Below, in pieces: positions 2,616 to 42,236 of a stretch of DNA of 64,000 nt; the first letter of the stretch is position 1, and each line of letters begins with the position of its first letter. The position numbers were made by a program, and so were the translations under genes. Source of the stretch: Octopus sinensis. Taxonomy: Eukaryota. The notes below the pieces were generated by a model. That model did not search any database, was not told the origin of the DNA, and was given only the letters and a program-made list of their open reading frames with translations. The DNA lies in NCBI RefSeq assembly GCF_006345805.1, contig NC_042997.1:20522001-20586000 (forward strand), given 5' to 3'.

Positions 2616-3240
2616 GGTCTTGACAGATACGTTTATATCGATTGGGACAGTCATATCAATGAGGAGGCATGATTTTTGTTGAAGTCTTTTAACATAATGT
2701 CTGGTCTATTTGCATCTATCTTTCTATCAGTTTGAATGATGAAGTTCCAGAGGAGTGAGATGTGATCATTTTCAAGCACTGGAGGAAGTTTGTGTTCCCA
2801 CCAGTTTTTATCATGTGACAGGTCCAGATTTTTGCAAATTACCTAGTGAATATATTGTGCTGCACTATCATGCCTGTCGAGATACTCTGTGGGCACAAGG
2901 AGACTGCACATGGAGGCAACATGATCAATGGTTTCATTTTGTTGTTGACATACACAACATGTTGGGCTGCCTACACAATCCTATGCTAATGTTCTTTATT
3001 TCATTGCTAAGTATACGTAGAATGCAAAGGTCAACCTTGCTCCCCATAGCAACATAAATAGTTAATTGCCATTCGTTTTCCCCCAGTATGTATTAACACG
3101 GAAAGTATTATGTTTGAATTCATTATGATGGCAATTCTGTCCTTGGTAATGCTTAACTGAACTCAAGTGCTTGTAGGAAGAGATTTCTTGGAGTAAATAA
3201 TATCATATGACATATCAAAGCGACCTCAAACCTAAACCAA
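2616..3240 (-). mobile_element. R4/Dong-like (RLE) non-LTR retrotransposon C-terminal fragment
   Basis: Minus strand reads CCVCQQQNETIDHVASMC (CCHC knuckle), then YLDRHD..WWEHKLPPVLENDHISLLWNFIIQTDRKIDANRPDIMLKDFNKKSCLLIDMTVPIDIN (PD..D restriction-like endonuclease), with one internal stop. Confidence 0.85.
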
Positions 3241-3361
3241 TAGATATGCAGAAGTATGATAATTGAATAGTTTAAGAAAATTAAAGACAAGCTCAAAATA
3301 CAAATTCATTCAGTTTTACGTTGAGATTTACCTTGAACTCAAACATCTTCTGTTCATCCAT

Positions 3362-3576
3362 CATACATATATGTACGTAAGTACGTACGTATGTATGTAT
3401 GTATGTATGTATGTATGTATGTATGTATGTATGTATGTATGTATGTATGTATGTTTGTACGTATGTACGTATGTATGCATGCATGAATGCATGTATGTAT
3501 GCATACATACATGTATATATATACATATATATATATACACATACATATATACACACATATATATATATATATATAG
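3362..3576. repeat. (TATG)n/(TA)n microsatellite
   Basis: Direct reading. Confidence 0.95.
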
Positions 3577-3627
3577 ATAGATAAATGAAAGAATGGAGTC
3601 GAATGACGATTTAACAAAATTCCTTTA

Positions 3628-3710
3628 TTCTCGACATATGTTTCGAAGACTGCATATTCTTAATTCCGAAGGAATAAAGGGTGCATTATGCCGTCTTCTC
3701 ATCAGGAAAG
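3628..3710 (-). ncRNA. Type I hammerhead ribozyme motif (intact core)
   Basis: Minus strand: TTTC-CTGATGA-GAAGAC[~42 nt]GTCTTC-GAAA-CATATG-TC^GAGA. Stem II is 6 bp, stem III is palindromic, stem I is short. Confidence 0.8.
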
Positions 3711-4225
3711 ACAAGGAACTTATGTCAGCATCATGACGAACAAAACTTTTAGATGACTGCCCACACGGAATCCATAGTGATAATGAGTGTTTCTTTAAAA
3801 TATTCCGTTATAAGCAGTGACGTCAACATTGGTTGGATGGATAAGATTCTAAAAAGTTCAAGAGTTCAAAAATGGTTGGAAGGGGCAGGTTCTAAGAATA
3901 GGGGGTGACAGAGTGCAAGTCGTATGTATGGTGATGCATTGTTGTTTGCTTTTGCCAATGAGATTGAGTGCCTATGTGTGCGTATGTATATAACTGCATT
4001 CGTGTCTATGTGTGTGTATATCTGTCACCCCCCCTATTCTTAGAACCTGCCCCTTCCAACCATTTTTGAACTCTTGAACTTTTTAGAATCTTATCCATCC
4101 AACCAATGTTGACGTCACTGCTTATAACGGAATATTTTAAAGAAACACTCATTATCACTATGGACTCCGTGTGAGCAGTCATCTAAAAGTTTTTGTTCGT
4201 CATGATGCTGACATAAGTTCCATCT

Positions 4226-4308
4226 CTTTCCTAATGAGAAGACAGCATAATGCACCCTTTATTCCTTCAGAATTAAGAATATGCAGTCTTCGAAACATAT
4301 GTCGAGAA
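4226..4308 (+). ncRNA. Hammerhead motif, core-mutated copy (CTAATGA)
   Basis: Mirror copy of 3628-3710 with a G5>A change at 4233. Confidence 0.6.
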
Positions 4309-4505
4309 TAAAGGAATTTTGTTAAATCGTCGTTCGACTCCATTCTTTCATTTATCTATAGTAAAAAAACACACAAATTTCCACACGAAAGCACTTGATT
4401 TCTGCCCTTGGCATGTAGCTTCAACCGTGCTTTCTAACGTAAATTTGCTACCCGGGTATCGGTTAACCGAATTATCCATACTAGGATAATTCATTCAACT
4501 ACTTA

Positions 4506-4508
<3 letters not shown>

Positions 4509-4547
<39 letters not shown>

Positions 4548-4641
4548 ATATGTATGCATATACATACATATACTTATATATATATAATATATATATATAT
4601 ATAGATATATATAAGTACATACATGCATATGTATATATATA

Positions 4642-4698
<57 letters not shown>

Positions 4699-4805
4699 AC
4701 ATATTTATATATATATATATATACATATTTATATATATATGCTCATACATACATATATATATATATATACACACATGTGTATGTGTATATATATATATAT
4801 ATACC
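4509..4805. repeat. (TA)n microsatellite
   Basis: Direct reading. Confidence 0.95.
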
Positions 4806-25577: not shown

Positions 25578-26926
25578 TATATATATATACATATATACAC
25601 ATACATACATATATATATGTATGTATGTTGCAACCAACCATATACACTTGTCGATGGAACCCTGAAAGGTCTTATACATAGGCAACCTAGGCCCCCACAG
25701 ACATTCATTTAACACTAGGTCAAAAACAAAAACAACTAAAACAGCTAACAACAACAGGCTTCACCACCCACATACCTTCTCCAAGAATATAGATAGCACT
25801 CCTTTATATAAAATCTTTGATAGCACTACACCCAGATCCCCTAAAAAACAAGCAGCGGATGCTCTATTCTGTGGTACACACCCCCATTCTCGCTTAACAT
25901 TAAGAACTTAGCTAAATCCTTCTTTAAAATACTAGACTCTAACTTGCCTCAGCAACATAAATGTTATTCGATCTTTAATCAATCCACCCTGAAACTATCT
26001 TATTCTACCTCACCCAACTTCGAATCTATTGTAGCAGCCTCTAATAAGCAAAAGCTTTCTCTTTACTATCAAAACTCACATAACTACAACTCTAGTCATA
26101 CGAACACTCAGCACACACACAGCTCCAGCACAGATATCCTTACATTGGACCACAACCACAACCACAACCACAACCCAACCCATCCTACTGACACTACCAG
26201 CAACACCACCACAATCTCTACAACCCTTACAAATAGTACAATTAATAACAACAATAGTAATAATAGCAATGATGGTAATGATAATGTTAATAATACTAAT
26301 AATATAGAATCTTCTACCCCCTTCTCTAACCTCTCCTCTGACGATATTACCTCCTCTATTCCTGAACACAGCCCCCAAAATTCACCAAATTGTAATTGCC
26401 GTCTTGGAAGCATCTGCCCGTTACAAACCCATTGCAGAAGATAAAATGCAATTTACAAATGCACTGTCCTTAATCTATTACACAACTCTACAGCCATATA
26501 CATTTTAAGCAACAATATGCCGCTTACCTTCATTCTTTTAGATACGATAAACATAGTAAATCTACAACACTTGCCAACCACATGCATCATTTCAAAAATA
26601 CAAATATACCCTATACTCTATCATGTTCCATACTGGACTCAGGGCTTCCCTACCGAGGTCAACACTCAACCTGCAAACTTTGCCTGAAGGAGGCACTTCA
26701 CATATTAAAGCACAACTCTCCAGCACTGTTAAATAAACACCAATTTTAGATACTATTGGATTTTACTCACAAGGTATTGGAATCTTATATGTATACCATT
26801 CTACCTAAATAATGGATCTACAAATGCAATATCTCTGAATATCTCACATCTATTTTCATTCCTCTACTTCACTCCCTATTTCATATCTTATCTAAATTAA
26901 CTATGGCTTAACCATTTTCTCACACC

Positions 26927-37862: not shown

Positions 37863-37893
<31 letters not shown>

Positions 37894-37927
37894 CAAATAG
37901 GAAAAAAGCAACAAGAATGGATTAAAA

Positions 37928-38015
37928 TCTCGGTACGATCGTTTCGTACGAGGACATCTTTAATAAGCTACAAAAAATGCAGTGAATACAGATGGCTCGT
38001 ACTCGTCAGCCGAAA
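37928..38015 (-). ncRNA. Type I hammerhead ribozyme motif (canonical)
   Basis: TTTCGG-CTGACGA-GTACGAG[~43 nt]CTCGTAC-GAAA-CGATCG-TA^CCGAGA. All three stems pair. Confidence 0.9.
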
Positions 38016-39232
38016 AAACATCAGAGAATTCCCAAACATCAAAAGGGGTAGATACAAAAGAGGTTGTAAGATTAACTGCATTGAAGAAAGTTTGATTCAT
38101 GGAGATCCGATGAAAGGTTTTAAACTTACAGAATTTGTGCATGTCTACATATAGCTCATATTGAATTTTTAATCAAGTTGTGTGAAGAAATTTTCGGATA
38201 CAGTCATGCAAAATTTCTGAAAATCCGAGTAAGAGGCAAAGTGACTGCCATATCATGTAGAGGAAAGTCTGAGTAAAAGCAAAGTGACTGTCATATCGTG
38301 TAGAGGAACAGATTGTTATTGAAATTTACAAGAATCGCAGATAAGTTCGATTCTTGGAGATCCGATGAAAAGTCTTGAACTTACAGAATATGTGCATGTC
38401 CTTATAGTTCATAATCCAGTTTTGTGAAGAGATTTAGGGTACAATCATGCGAAAAATATCAGGGAATCCGAATGAGAAGCAAAATGACAGTCTTATATTG
38501 TGGCGGTTCAGGTTGTTAATGAATTTTACAAGAATCACAGAAAGAGGAGGAAGGAAGTAGAAATTTAATCAGTTACTGCTATTTAAGCTATCAAAGAGAA
38601 AGGAAAGGGGAAGCTAAGGGGATGGGCACAAGTTGATACTAACAGAAAATCTAAGCTTGTTTAGTGCAAAATTCGAACTGAGGTCAACAATTTATTTCTT
38701 TATTTATAAATGTTACTATTAATAGATTGTCAGGTTACAATGAGAGGTCATTAGCAAGGAAAGAAAAATGGTGTTGTTTTTAAATGAAATCAAACAATTA
38801 TATTATTATTATACTATACTATAATACACTACACTATATTATATTATATTATTTTATATTATATTATATCACATCACAATACACTACGATAGGTCTGGGA
38901 TTAGCAGAATTAATTTTTAGTGTAAAAGAAATTAAGAGATTTAACTAACTAATATTTATATATGGGTTAAAAAATAGACTAAGAAATGGAGATAAAAATA
39001 GAGCAAAATTTAATTTATTAATAATATGGTCCAATAGAAATAAATCAAATAATTTAAATCAATAAGTATTAAATAGTACCATCAGAGAGAGAAATTATAA
39101 TCATAGCTAGTTAGATCTTATCTTGCTAGTTAAATATATAATATACTATGTAGGAGTGATATGTAAGTCAAAGTGAATTTTATGCAAAATGATTCCAGTA
39201 TACAGTTATCAATTGAGATATCATTTAAAATA

Positions 39233-39439
39233 TCATTTAAAATATTTAAGAGTCTTAACTCGAGCATGTATACAAGAATTTCCAAGTTCAATTCTGCTGT
39301 TTAATTGAATTTCTCCATTATTTCTATACATTAGTATTTCAAATGCTTCCATGGAGCAAAGTTGGCAGCCTACTCTGCTATTTTTATAGGGTTTTGCTCT
39401 TCTGACTAATTCCCAATTAAGGTTATATTTGATATTTTT
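39233..39439 (-). pseudogene. C-terminal 68 aa of a Naiad-type GIY-YIG endonuclease
   Basis: KNIKYNLNWELVRRAKPYKNSRVGCQLCSMEAFEILMYRNNGEIQLNSRIELGNSCIHARVKTLKYFK*, matching the W..PY..CxLC..E..I..LN.R.E..C.H pattern. Open frame, 5'-truncated. Confidence 0.85.
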
Positions 39440-39875
39440 CGCATGATTGTACCCTAAATCTCTTCACAAAACTGGATTATGAACTATAAGGACATGCACA
39501 TATTCTGTAAGTTCAAGACTTTTCATCGGATCTCCAAGAATCGAACTTATCTGCGATTCTTGTAAATTTCAATAACAATCTGTTCCTCTACACGATATGA
39601 CAGTCACTTTGCTTTTACTCAGACTTTCCTCTACATGATATGGCAGTCAATTTGCCTCTTACTCGGATTTTCAGAAATTTTGCATGACTGTATCCGAAAA
39701 TTTCTTCACACAACTTGATTAAAAATTCAATATGAGCTATATGTAGACATGCACAAATTCTGTAAGTTTAAAACCTTTCATCGGATCTCCATGAATCGAA
39801 CTTTCTTCAATGCAGTTAATCTTACAACCTCTTTTGTATCTACCCCTTTTGATGTTTGGGAATTCTCTGATGTTT

Positions 39876-39963
39876 TTTCGGCTGACGAGTACGAGCCATC
39901 TGTATTCACTGCATTTTTTGTAGCTTATTAAAGATGTCCTCGTACGAAACGATTGTACCGAGA
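39876..39963 (+). ncRNA. Type I hammerhead motif (mirror copy)
   Basis: Same as 37928-38015 but stem III reads CGATTG. Confidence 0.8.
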
Positions 39964-40137
39964 TTTTAATCCATTCTTGTTGCTTTTTTTCCTATTTGTA
40001 ATCACCCCACTTGTCGTATGGTTAACACCATATAGATTTCCGGTGCATCCTAGTTAAGGACCATATTCATGTGAATTCTTTAGAATTCACTAGAATCTCA
40101 ATTACTTAACCGTATATATATATATATATATATATAT

Positions 40138-40463
40138 AAATTAGGAAAAAAAAACACCTTTTATCAATTCAATAATAAAAACTAAAATTATACCATTTAG
40201 AAAAATTACATATTTGAATGGCAGTGCCCCAACATGGCCACAGCTCGTGAGCTGAGACTAGATAAAATTTTTTTTAAATATATAGAAAGATTAAATATAA
40301 GATAAAACATATAACAATGATTAAGAAATGTGCAAAATAATAAATAAAACGTATATATTTAGTAATATAGATATATATCTTTCTATATATATGTAATTTT
40401 TCTAAATGGTATAATTTGATGTTTCATTATTGAATTGATAAAAGGTGTTTTTTTTCTAATTTT
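40138..40463. repeat. Inverted repeat (~75-bp arms) between (TA)n tracts, enclosing a SINE/LINE tail
   Basis: 40138-40213 pairs with 40389-40463. Confidence 0.65.
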
Positions 40464-40973
40464 TATATATATATATATATACACACATGTATATATGGAT
40501 GGACATGTATATATATGTGTGTATAAGTAAATATGCACACATGTATACATAGTGCACCAGACTATTGATAAAACAAATCCCAGAAAAAAGCCCTGATGTA
40601 AAACTAAATAGATCAAAGAAACAAATCATTCAACAAAAGCTTCCTCAGCCCCAATGACTGCCATAAGACAGCTGCAGAAGTGACAGCATTCCAGAATAGT
40701 GTGGTTCCTTCCTACTCCTCCCAACATGCCCACGATATGGGCAATGATTACAGAAAACGATAATAACATGGGTTTGAAATTTTGGTGGAGGAGATAAATC
40801 TATTAAATTAAATCTAGTACTTGACTGGGATTTTATTGATTTCAGAAGTTAATAGGAAAAGTAATCTTGACAGGATTTCAACTCAGAATGTAAAGGACTC
40901 GAACAAATACTTTAAGACAATTTTCCCAACATTCTAGCAATTTTGCTGACTCGCCACCCTTAAACCATTTCTA

Positions 40974-42236
40974 TTAAATCATTAAGAATGAAATGTCTGA
41001 TTTTGAACTGAAAGTTTATTTTACTTTATCTCAACAAAAAGCAATGCAGTTAATCAAAGTATGCACCTAAATTATCAACACAATTTTGCCATTTTACCAG
41101 GTAGCGTATTTATATTGGCACCGAAGAATTCTGATGAAATCACGAAAGGCTGTTTTTGCATCTTCTTCAGATTTGAAGTTTTTTCCTTACAAAAGTTGTC
41201 TAATGCCTGGGAAACATGATAGTCAGTTAGTGCAAGGTCTGGTGAATATGGTGGATGACAGAGTATTTCCAAGTTCAGTTCCTGTAACTTGATTAGCGTT
41301 CTTTGTGCAACATGGGGTCAAGCATTGTCTTGCAAGAGAATTGGTCTGTCTCTGCTGACTCAATTTTTTAATTGCAAGTTCATTCATTTCATCCAATTGG
41401 TTGATGTATACATCTGTTGTAATTGACTTACCAGGTGTCATGAAACTGCAGTGGAGGACACCAACACTAGACCACCAAACAGATATCATTAGCTTGTTTT
41501 GGTGAATATTCTTTTTTGGATTGTGTTTTGGCACACTTCGTCTCTTTTTAACTACTGTTCAGAACACTTGCTTTTGTTGAAAAGAATCCATTTTTCATCA
41601 CACTTAACAATATGATGCAAATATGGTTCACTTTTATGCTGTGACAACAAAGAACATCAAGTTTCAAGACAACATATCATTTGATGCTCATTGAGCTCAT
41701 GTGGTATCCATTTGTCCAGCTTCTTTACCTTACCGATTTGTATCAGATAGTCCAATACAGTTGGAATCAAAATATCAAACCCTGCTGCTAACTCATGCAT
41801 AGTTTGAGATGTATCTACTTCCACTCCAGTTCCAGCTCATCATTATCCATCTTGGTCTCAGATCTACAATGGGGCTGATTTTCAAGAGTAAAGTCACCAG
41901 ACTGGAACTTCTTAAACCATCGATGTAAAGTGTGCTCACTTGCCACATCTTCACCAAATATCTCATTGATGTTTTAAGCTGTCTGGGATGCATTGGTTCC
42001 ACAATAGAACTCATACTCATAAACAAGACGAATTTCTGATCTATCCATGGGTTCACAAAAGTTGATTTACAAGAGAAAGTTCACAATATAATCAGACACC
42101 ATGAATTGCATTTCGAAAAGAGATGATGTAACTCTTGACGTTGTAAAACAAAGAATTGTCAAGATAAAACATTAGAGTTAACGACTGTCGAACTTGGTGC
42201 ATAAGAAAATCAGACATTTCATTCTTAAGGACCTGA
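40974..42236 (-). mobile_element. Full-length decayed mariner transposon
   Basis: ~31-bp TIRs (ttaagaatgaaatgtctgatttt core) and TA TSDs. Transposase remnants WIPHEL, EKWILF, LMISVWW and HPPYSPDLALTDYH. Confidence 0.92.

What the first reader, a model, noticed from the sequence alone, without database searches (positions are those of the whole stretch)
37892..40112. Very young Naiad-like insertion with two mirror-image canonical hammerheads carrying an enlarged stem-II loop
Seen: the ~570-bp arms differ at only a few positions. The HHR has a 6-bp stem I, a 7-bp stem II with a ~43-nt loop, and a palindromic stem III (CGATCG). The GIY-YIG C-terminus is still open, and the arm/ORF junction shares ~10 nt of microhomology (tgatattttt, 39430-39439). 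Inference: a recently active family. Transcription from either direction would meet a ribozyme and could also fold into ~570 bp of dsRNA. Some Naiads are known to encode selenoproteins, but no UGA-for-Cys is visible in this fragment.
Basis: partly seen in the sequence, partly recalled or inferred. Interest (0 to 1): 0.72.

Follow-up and report, generated by a model that had tools for sequence, protein, structure and literature searches.

The report
Octopus Hydra retrotransposon, long-armed mirror hammerheads
This is a cut-short copy of an abundant Penelope-like jumping gene of the Hydra type (not a Naiad), in what is likely an octopus genome, joined head-to-head to an inverted copy of its own end; the layout is known, but its predicted self-cutting RNA has an unusually long folded arm, and its two ends stop 112 bases apart, as in nearly all such insertions checked, likely because copying starts once at each of two fixed sites.

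Summary
The inverted 570-bp arms (3 substitutions, 1 indel) and both hammerhead motifs are real. The Naiad reading is wrong. Longer copies show reverse transcriptase first and GIY-YIG last, with the DKT, CxCX5C, CxxC and CxH motifs and no in-frame UGA: the Hydra clade of Penelope-like elements. An inverted 5' copy with two opposed hammerheads is already listed for that clade. The '43-nt loop' is a predicted three-helix stem II of 57 nt (published Hydra motifs: at most about 26 nt); about 12 motif families in the DNA fetched have 43-99 nt. The family ends at two sites 112-117 nt apart (published tails: 30-40 nt). In 29 of 30 inverted insertions one outer end is long and one short, and the arms share private variants. 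Either arm can be the longer, which excludes simple snap-back here and favours two coupled primings. In read-through RNA the antisense arm comes first, so folding predicts the ribozyme is locked in dsRNA; contigs from runs guessed to be RNA carry T>C clusters over the motif, likely A-to-I editing. The copy is of median age for its family. The scan noted long stems and paired ends before on other DNA.

The parts
37868..37893 (.). (TA)n target, left flank
   Evidence: sequence; nearly all family ends abut (TA)n
37892..38461 (-). Left arm: 3' end (pLTR region) of the truncated body, stopping at the short terminus (unit position 4611 of 4723)
37928..38015 (-). Type I hammerhead motif, family-typical copy: core 38009-38003, stem II domain 38002-37946 (57 nt), GAAA, palindrome CGAUCG, predicted cut between 37934 and 37933
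   Evidence: cleavage not tested
38462..39232 (-). Unduplicated 3' UTR of the element
   Evidence: matches unit L012
39233..39436 (-). Last 67 codons and stop of the GIY-YIG endonuclease, with CxxC (CQLC), conserved E and N, and CxH (CIH)
39430..39436 (.). Head-to-head junction, 7-nt microhomology shared by both arms
39430..40000 (+). Right arm: inverted 5'-truncated second copy of the 3' end
39876..39963 (+). Second hammerhead motif; stem II domain 39889-39945; stem III CGAUUG (C to U at 39954); predicted cut after 39957
40001..40112 (+). 112-nt tail between the short and the long terminus; in tandem copies it leads straight into the 5' UTR and the ORF start 55 nt later
40113..40138 (.). (TA)n target, right flank
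   Evidence: sequence

Best explanation
This is a 5'-truncated copy of a Hydra-clade Penelope-like retrotransposon joined head-to-head to an inverted copy of its own 3' end in a (TA)n repeat, likely made by two coupled reverse-transcription primings, with hammerheads that are predicted to cut only as dimers and to be locked in double-stranded RNA at this locus. Shown: clade motifs; a 4723-bp unit with a 1105-codon ORF; two fixed 3' termini 112-117 nt apart; one long and one short outer end in 29 of 30 inverted insertions; shared variants between arms; short junction overlaps. Inferred: the element's protein, likely a dimer, nicks both strands of the TA repeat; one strand primes at the distal start site and the other at the proximal one, on the same RNA or on RNAs of one source copy; both cDNAs stop early, their 3' ends anneal by a few bases and each completes the other. 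The ribozyme likely serves the full-length tandem transcript (trimming or circularising it as a dimer through the palindromic stem III); the long stem II is a folded, length-tolerant arm whose role is untested. This truncated copy cannot encode the enzyme; if read through, it likely gives about 570 bp of dsRNA that is edited rather than cut.
For: Clade: RT then EN in L011, L012, L013; RWR, DKT, CxCX5C, CxxC, CxH; no CCHH; 41% identity over 487 aa and 40% over 128 aa, in the same order, to a 729-aa relative of the same layout; closest named proteins are from Octopus and Argonauta. Two termini: distances from the predicted cut cluster at 34-48 (26 of 65 ends) and 148-165 nt (39 of 65). Pairing: 30 of 30 junctions join a long-type and a short-type arm; in L019 the long-type arm runs on into a full unit, so by outer ends 29 long+short, 1 short+short, 0 long+long. 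In the set chosen with a tail-free query 10 of 10 are long+short while the other ends are 10 long and 10 short; families D and E 3 of 3 each. Which arm reaches further 5': short-ended 14, long-ended 13, equal 3; here the short-ended arm holds the unique centre, so a hairpin cDNA could not have supplied the tail. Arms of one insertion differ at 65 of 8849 sites (0.73%) against means of 1.1-5.2% between insertions and share subfamily and private variants. In vitro, an anole element cuts and extends both strands, starts at two sites that match its tail, and is predicted to be a dimer (PMC11167929). Monomer stem III has pairing probability 0.0 and stem I at most 0.14; eight different perfect 6-nt palindromes stand at stem III across families. 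Whole-insertion fold sequesters the motif on both strands. Three 30-letter contig ends over the motif, from 2 of 4 runs guessed to be RNA (two studies), differ from the window by T>C only: 6 of 6, 5 of 5, 6 of 6 (one search read).
Against: No cleavage, priming or transcript was shown. Shared variants could come from gene conversion between arms or from two RNAs of one source. L019 is short+short; L011 (long+short, rearranged inverted arm) and L030/L007 (non-overlapping 5' inversion) fell outside the automated count; tandem family B could not be scored. Copies were the best-scoring 40 per search out of about 900-2300 candidates, so they lean young and close. The T>C clusters are single contigs of uncertain RNA status, not assigned to this locus, with no matched DNA. 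In the anole work the ribozyme was dispensable for insertion and no RNA ends mapped to its cut site. None of the long copies read (L011-L014, L017, L019, L020) had a fully intact ORF.
Confidence: 0.7

Rival explanations
1. Snap-back: one cDNA primed at the long terminus folds back by microhomology, copies itself, and is cut or joined at the short terminus.
For: Explains identical arms and long+short pairing with one priming; fits the 13 of 30 insertions whose long-ended arm is the longer; Craig et al. ascribe the tail to endonuclease resolution of an intermediate.
Against: Cannot give the 14 of 30 insertions, this one included, where the short-ended arm holds the unique centre while the other arm carries a tail absent from it, unless a second template is used.
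Confidence: 0.15
2. The long stem II is a selected functional module (docking site for the element's protein, or a switch that permits cutting only when protein is bound) rather than tolerated bulk.
For: Unrelated sequences fold into similar rods in families A, B, D, E and G (z -2.3 to -8.3 for the best copies); helix, small loop, helix recurs; the anole hammerhead is protein-assisted.
Against: Length runs from 43 to 99 nt and includes simple-repeat expansions in family G; some families fold no better than shuffles (z 0.0 to -1.2); Hydra family F in the same genome has a 21-nt stem II and the same long tail.
Confidence: 0.3
3. The locus was co-opted or acts as a bidirectional ribozyme terminator for host transcripts.
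For: One intact core faces each direction.
Against: Antisense arm precedes the motif in both directions and sequesters it; the right copy has a weakened palindrome; the layout is routine for the family; no host gene was recognised in the window's long ORFs (a weak test).
Confidence: 0.03
4. A Naiad element, or an assembly artefact.
For: Naiads also insert in (TA)n, form inverted copies and occur in Octopus; the junction was not bridged by any listed contig.
Against: Domain order, motifs and hammerhead contradict Naiad. The arms differ at 4 places, one has a tail, and 30 distinct junctions obey one rule.
Confidence: 0.02

Closest known systems
Hydra clade of C-terminal EN+ Penelope-like elements, including Hydra-1_Obim and Penelope-13_HM (Craig et al. 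2021, PMC8557442; seen: passages, section 11, parts of the supplement)
   Same: RT then GIY-YIG; DKT; CxCX5C; CxxC and CxH; no CCHH; (TA)n target; canonical hammerhead near the 3' end; Penelope-13_HM is listed with a 5'-truncated inverted copy and a hammerhead on each strand.
   Different: Unit 4.7 kb and ORF 1105 aa with two Asn-rich inserts of about 150 and 220 aa (listed elements 1.1-3.0 kb); RWR for RWK; stem II domain 57 nt against loop 2 of 3-10 nt in all 26 Hydra rows of File S2; tail 112-117 nt against 30-40 nt.
Metazoan PLE hammerheads and non-LTR retrozymes (Cervera and de la Pena 2014, PMC4209133, parts 1-2 of 4; 2020, PMC7229834, passages; bioRxiv 10.64898/2026.07.22.740005, part 1 of 5)
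   Same: [quoted passage not shown]
   Different: A multi-helix 43-99 nt stem II is not described in the parts read. Two spike-moss PLE-X motifs in File S2 of PMC8557442 have 28- and 35-nt loops, so a long arm has a precedent outside animals.
PAc Poseidon element of Anolis (Frangieh et al. 2024, PMC11167929, parts 1-2 of 4)
   Same: Both target strands extended; two internal start sites that define the tail; AT-rich target; predicted dimer.
   Different: Its sites are close together and no difference in start site between strands was seen in vitro; here the sites are 112-117 nt apart and the two arms use different sites in 29 of 30 cases.
Twin priming of LINE-1 5' inversions (recalled, no call)
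   Same: Two target strands prime two cDNAs that are joined by microhomology.
   Different: In L1 the two cDNAs cover non-overlapping parts of the RNA; here both cover the 3' end, giving an inverted duplication.
Naiad elements (PMC8557442)
   Same: Penelope-like, (TA)n target, inverted copies, tail at one end.
   Different: N-terminal endonuclease with CCHH, DKA, no canonical hammerhead, some with selenocysteine: none of this applies.

Membership tests
Hydra clade PLE | Single ORF, RT followed by C-terminal GIY-YIG endonuclease | tested here: met
   L011, L012, L013 ORFs; order matches P0005. Pfam names no domain.
Hydra clade PLE | DKG modified to DKT; RWK motif | tested here: met
   PADKTG and RRIRWR (K to R) in L012
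Hydra clade PLE | Linker CxCX5C; CxxC and CxH around conserved E and N; no CCHH | tested here: met
   CNCRIKSKC, CQLC, CIH; a shared 1-nt deletion removes CxH in some copies
Hydra clade PLE | Canonical hammerhead in the 3' repeat; insertion into (TA)n | tested here: met
Hydra clade PLE | Generally shorter than 3 kb | tested here: not met
   4723-bp unit; the paper says 'generally', so this is a typical trait and not a defining one
Hydra clade PLE | Groups with published Hydra RTs in a tree | not tested
   Published sequences were read by eye in the supplement; no tree was built
Naiad | N-terminal endonuclease with CCHH, CxC linker before RT, DKA | tested here: not met
Naiad | No canonical hammerhead | tested here: not met
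   intact core in nearly all copies listed
Naiad selenoproteins | In-frame UGA at conserved Cys | tested here: not met
   0 TGA, 19 TGY in L012; no SECIS search was run
Type I hammerhead ribozyme | Core CUGANGA, GAAA, UH; G10.1-C11.1; three helices | tested here: met
   stem III needs a dimer
Type I hammerhead ribozyme | Loop 1 / loop 2 tertiary contact | not tested
   not looked for; geometry differs from the canonical 4-bp stem II
Type I hammerhead ribozyme | Self-cleavage | not testable with these tools
   only contigs were available

The most novel reading that the evidence does not exclude
Penelope-like elements make their inverted repeats by obligately asymmetric twin priming: one protein dimer holds one RNA at two start sites 110-155 nt apart, each subunit primes from one target strand, the distal polymerase displaces the proximal cDNA, and the two cDNAs are joined end to end. 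Octopus Hydra elements would carry this as an enlarged docking region (long tail plus long hammerhead stem II), and their long-armed hammerheads would be a large class that standard RNA searches miss.
Probability: 0.35. Interest if true: 0.7.

Novelty: new variant of a known kind. Interest (0 to 1): 0.42.

Why it matters
How Penelope-like elements form inverted repeats and one-sided tails is open. The long+short rule, the shared variants and the even split of which arm is longer give a sharp prediction that the published in vitro system can test. The long-armed hammerheads escaped Rfam here and exceed published Hydra motifs, so animal ribozyme counts likely miss them. Thousands of such insertions would be a source of near-perfect dsRNA in an animal known for heavy A-to-I editing. 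The locus itself is an ordinary dead copy.

Tried and rejected
Rfam found no hammerhead; Pfam found nothing in the fragment, the full ORF or two relatives. No RNA holder was listed on record; this is no evidence on expression. Contigs of 4 runs laid on 38470-40420 were too fragmented to bridge the junction. Contigs of 4 runs guessed to be RNA cannot show molecule ends, so cleavage, circles and a 5' intron were not testable; the RT half was covered in one run only. The end-pairing count for tandem family B is void because its units run on past the reference. A young Hydra family (L206-L213) showed no CUGANGA motif within 2.4 kb of its endonuclease or in longer stretches; not resolved. No host gene was recognised in the window, and the scan held no nearby notes. 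Paper searches for a long PLE stem II, for hammerheads in octopus and for twin priming in Penelope gave nothing beyond the papers cited; most subscription papers are not in that library, the Terminon paper was not held, and the supplements of PMC4209133 and PMC11167929 were not read and may show long helix II variants or strand-specific start sites. No age in years is given because no rate came from a call.

Full report
Observation. The window holds an inverted repeat at 37892-38461 and 39430-40000. Over 571 columns the arms differ by three substitutions and one A-run indel. Each arm carries a type I hammerhead motif, on the minus strand at 37928-38015 and on the plus strand at 39876-39963, with core CUGACGA and GAAA, a 6-bp stem I, a 7-bp basal stem II and a GUA cleavage triplet. 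The palindrome CGATCG is in the left copy only. The 43 enclosed bases fold into two more predicted helices (z -4.7). The junction microhomology is 7 nt. The right arm continues for 112 nt of family sequence. Rfam missed both motifs.

What it is. The stretch belongs to a family with roughly 900-2300 first-look candidates per search in the own genome, 40 scored each time. Longer copies give a 4723-bp unit (L012) with a 476-bp direct repeat in front that differs from the 3' copy at 2 sites, and a 1105-codon ORF with reverse transcriptase first and GIY-YIG last. It has RWR, DKT, the linker CxCX5C, and CxxC and CxH around the conserved E and N, and no CCHH. These are the marks of the Hydra clade (PMC8557442 section 11). 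Naiads have the endonuclease at the N-terminus and lack canonical hammerheads, so the Naiad label and the selenoprotein lead fall; L012 has no in-frame TGA. The closest named proteins are from Octopus and Argonauta, so the host is likely an octopus. The family differs from listed Hydra elements by its size, from two Asn-rich inserts in the ORF and a 1.3-kb 3' region. The layout is known: Penelope-13_HM is listed with an inverted 5'-truncated copy and one hammerhead per strand. None of the seven long copies read had a fully intact ORF. Seven of 24 arm pairs are identical, so the family was active recently, and this copy (3 of about 560 sites) is at the median.

The long stem II. All 26 Hydra rows of the published table have loop 2 of 3-10 nt; two spike-moss PLE-X rows have 28 and 35 nt, and those searches used descriptors that may disfavour long loops. 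In 1.0 Mb of fetched loci a descriptor without a length limit found 221 motifs, redundant loci included, and 0 in shuffled DNA. They fall into about 12 sequence families with stem II domains of 43-99 nt and two with 16-25 nt. Four long-stem families (A, this one, 57 nt; D, 54; E, 55; G, 62-99) lie downstream of a Hydra endonuclease; family B (51 nt) is a 533-bp tandem repeat with no endonuclease match in its loci. Most fold as rods, some no better than shuffles (z from -8.3 to 0.0). Stem III shows eight different perfect 6-nt palindromes although the descriptor asked for only two of three pairs; monomer folding gives it no pairing. This fits the dimer model of PMC4209133, where such motifs cut weakly. 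The scan had noted long-armed hammerheads in this genome several times; my reading was reached before that look-up.

The two ends. Family A ends either 34-48 or 148-165 nt after the predicted cut (65 ends). Families B, D, E and F are also bimodal, with gaps of about 125-155 nt; published tails are 30-40 nt. Family F has a short stem II and a long tail, so the two traits are not tied. All 30 head-to-head junctions of family A join a long-type and a short-type arm; by outer ends 29 are long+short and L019 is short+short. With a tail-free query the count is 10 of 10, while unpaired ends split 10 to 10. D and E give 3 of 3 each. Junction overlaps of 1-11 nt occur in 22 of 30; the rest abut or have inserted bases. 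Arms of one insertion share subfamily and private variants (0.73% apart against 1.1-5.2% between insertions). The short-ended arm reaches further 5' in 14 cases, the long-ended arm in 13, and 3 are equal. A hairpin cDNA cannot make the first class, which includes this locus, because the tail is missing from the strand that would be its template. Two primings, one per site and per target strand, explain both classes. The anole element cuts and extends both strands, starts at two sites that bound its tail and is predicted to be a dimer; the coupling of site to arm is my inference, and a note of this scan reports a similar rule with a 68-nt offset in another genome.

What the locus does now. It lacks the polymerase. 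In a read-through RNA of either strand the antisense arm comes first, and the minimum-energy fold places the entire motif in the inter-arm duplex. Three contig ends over the motif from two of four runs guessed to be RNA differ from the window only by T>C, 17 of 17 changes in 90 letters, a pattern absent from the genomic copies. This is likely A-to-I hyper-editing of antisense RNA of some family member. It is not locus-specific and lacks matched DNA. Heavy hyper-editing in Octopus bimaculoides and of Penelope in a lizard is published (PMC5625713, passages).

Verdict. New variant in three measurable respects: long folded stem II, long tail, and the long+short rule. I found none of these in the papers searched (PMC3088659 and PMC7229834 seen as passages), with the limits given under Tried and rejected. 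Interest 0.42.

Noticed in passing
window 3577-4508: A second inverted Hydra-clade insertion (family D) with mirror hammerheads, 54-nt stem II with a UUCG-capped hairpin and a 150-nt one-sided tail; the plus-strand copy has a core change.
   Followed up: yes
window 25845-26734 (+): Decayed third Hydra family (F); its relatives carry a short 21-nt stem II hammerhead.
   Followed up: partly
L074 (and L061-L080): Very young 533-bp tandem repeat (about 99% identity, 968 candidates) with a 51-nt stem II hammerhead and no endonuclease match: likely a non-LTR retrozyme mobilised by Hydra elements.
   Followed up: partly
L159, L160, L162, L224: Family G stem II grows from 62 to 99 nt by simple-repeat and AT-rich expansion while its base helix is kept.
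   Followed up: partly
L206-L213, L233-L238: Young Hydra family with a long 3' region and no CUGANGA motif found; core variant or loss not resolved.
   Followed up: partly
L011, L012, L020, L021, L027, L029, L030: A shared 1-nt deletion near the ORF end replaces the CxH terminus by a longer hydrophobic tail in 8 of 20 matches (redundant loci included); may be a spreading subfamily or a recurrent sequencing error.
   Followed up: partly
L012:8030-8623: One diverged copy of the 3' UTR (28 substitutions, 10 gaps) is the same long contig in three runs guessed to be RNA from three studies and two organism labels: possibly a copy inside a host transcript.
   Followed up: no
L012 3825-4300 and 8548-9023: The 5' and 3' repeats share a C11.1-to-T change in the hammerhead that only one other copy-level match (the same locus) shows, as expected if both were copied from one template such as a circle.
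   Followed up: partly
L030 / L007: A non-overlapping 5' inversion (unit 20-856 inverted against 2908-4723), like L1 twin priming.
   Followed up: no
window 40141-40470: High-copy small element with about 70-bp terminal inverted repeats abuts the right TA flank.
   Followed up: no
window 38088-38263 and 38343-38496: Two about 170-nt direct repeats, 76% alike, inside the arm.
   Followed up: no
window 41075-41558 (-): Decayed mariner-type transposase fragments, named from recalled motifs.
   Followed up: no
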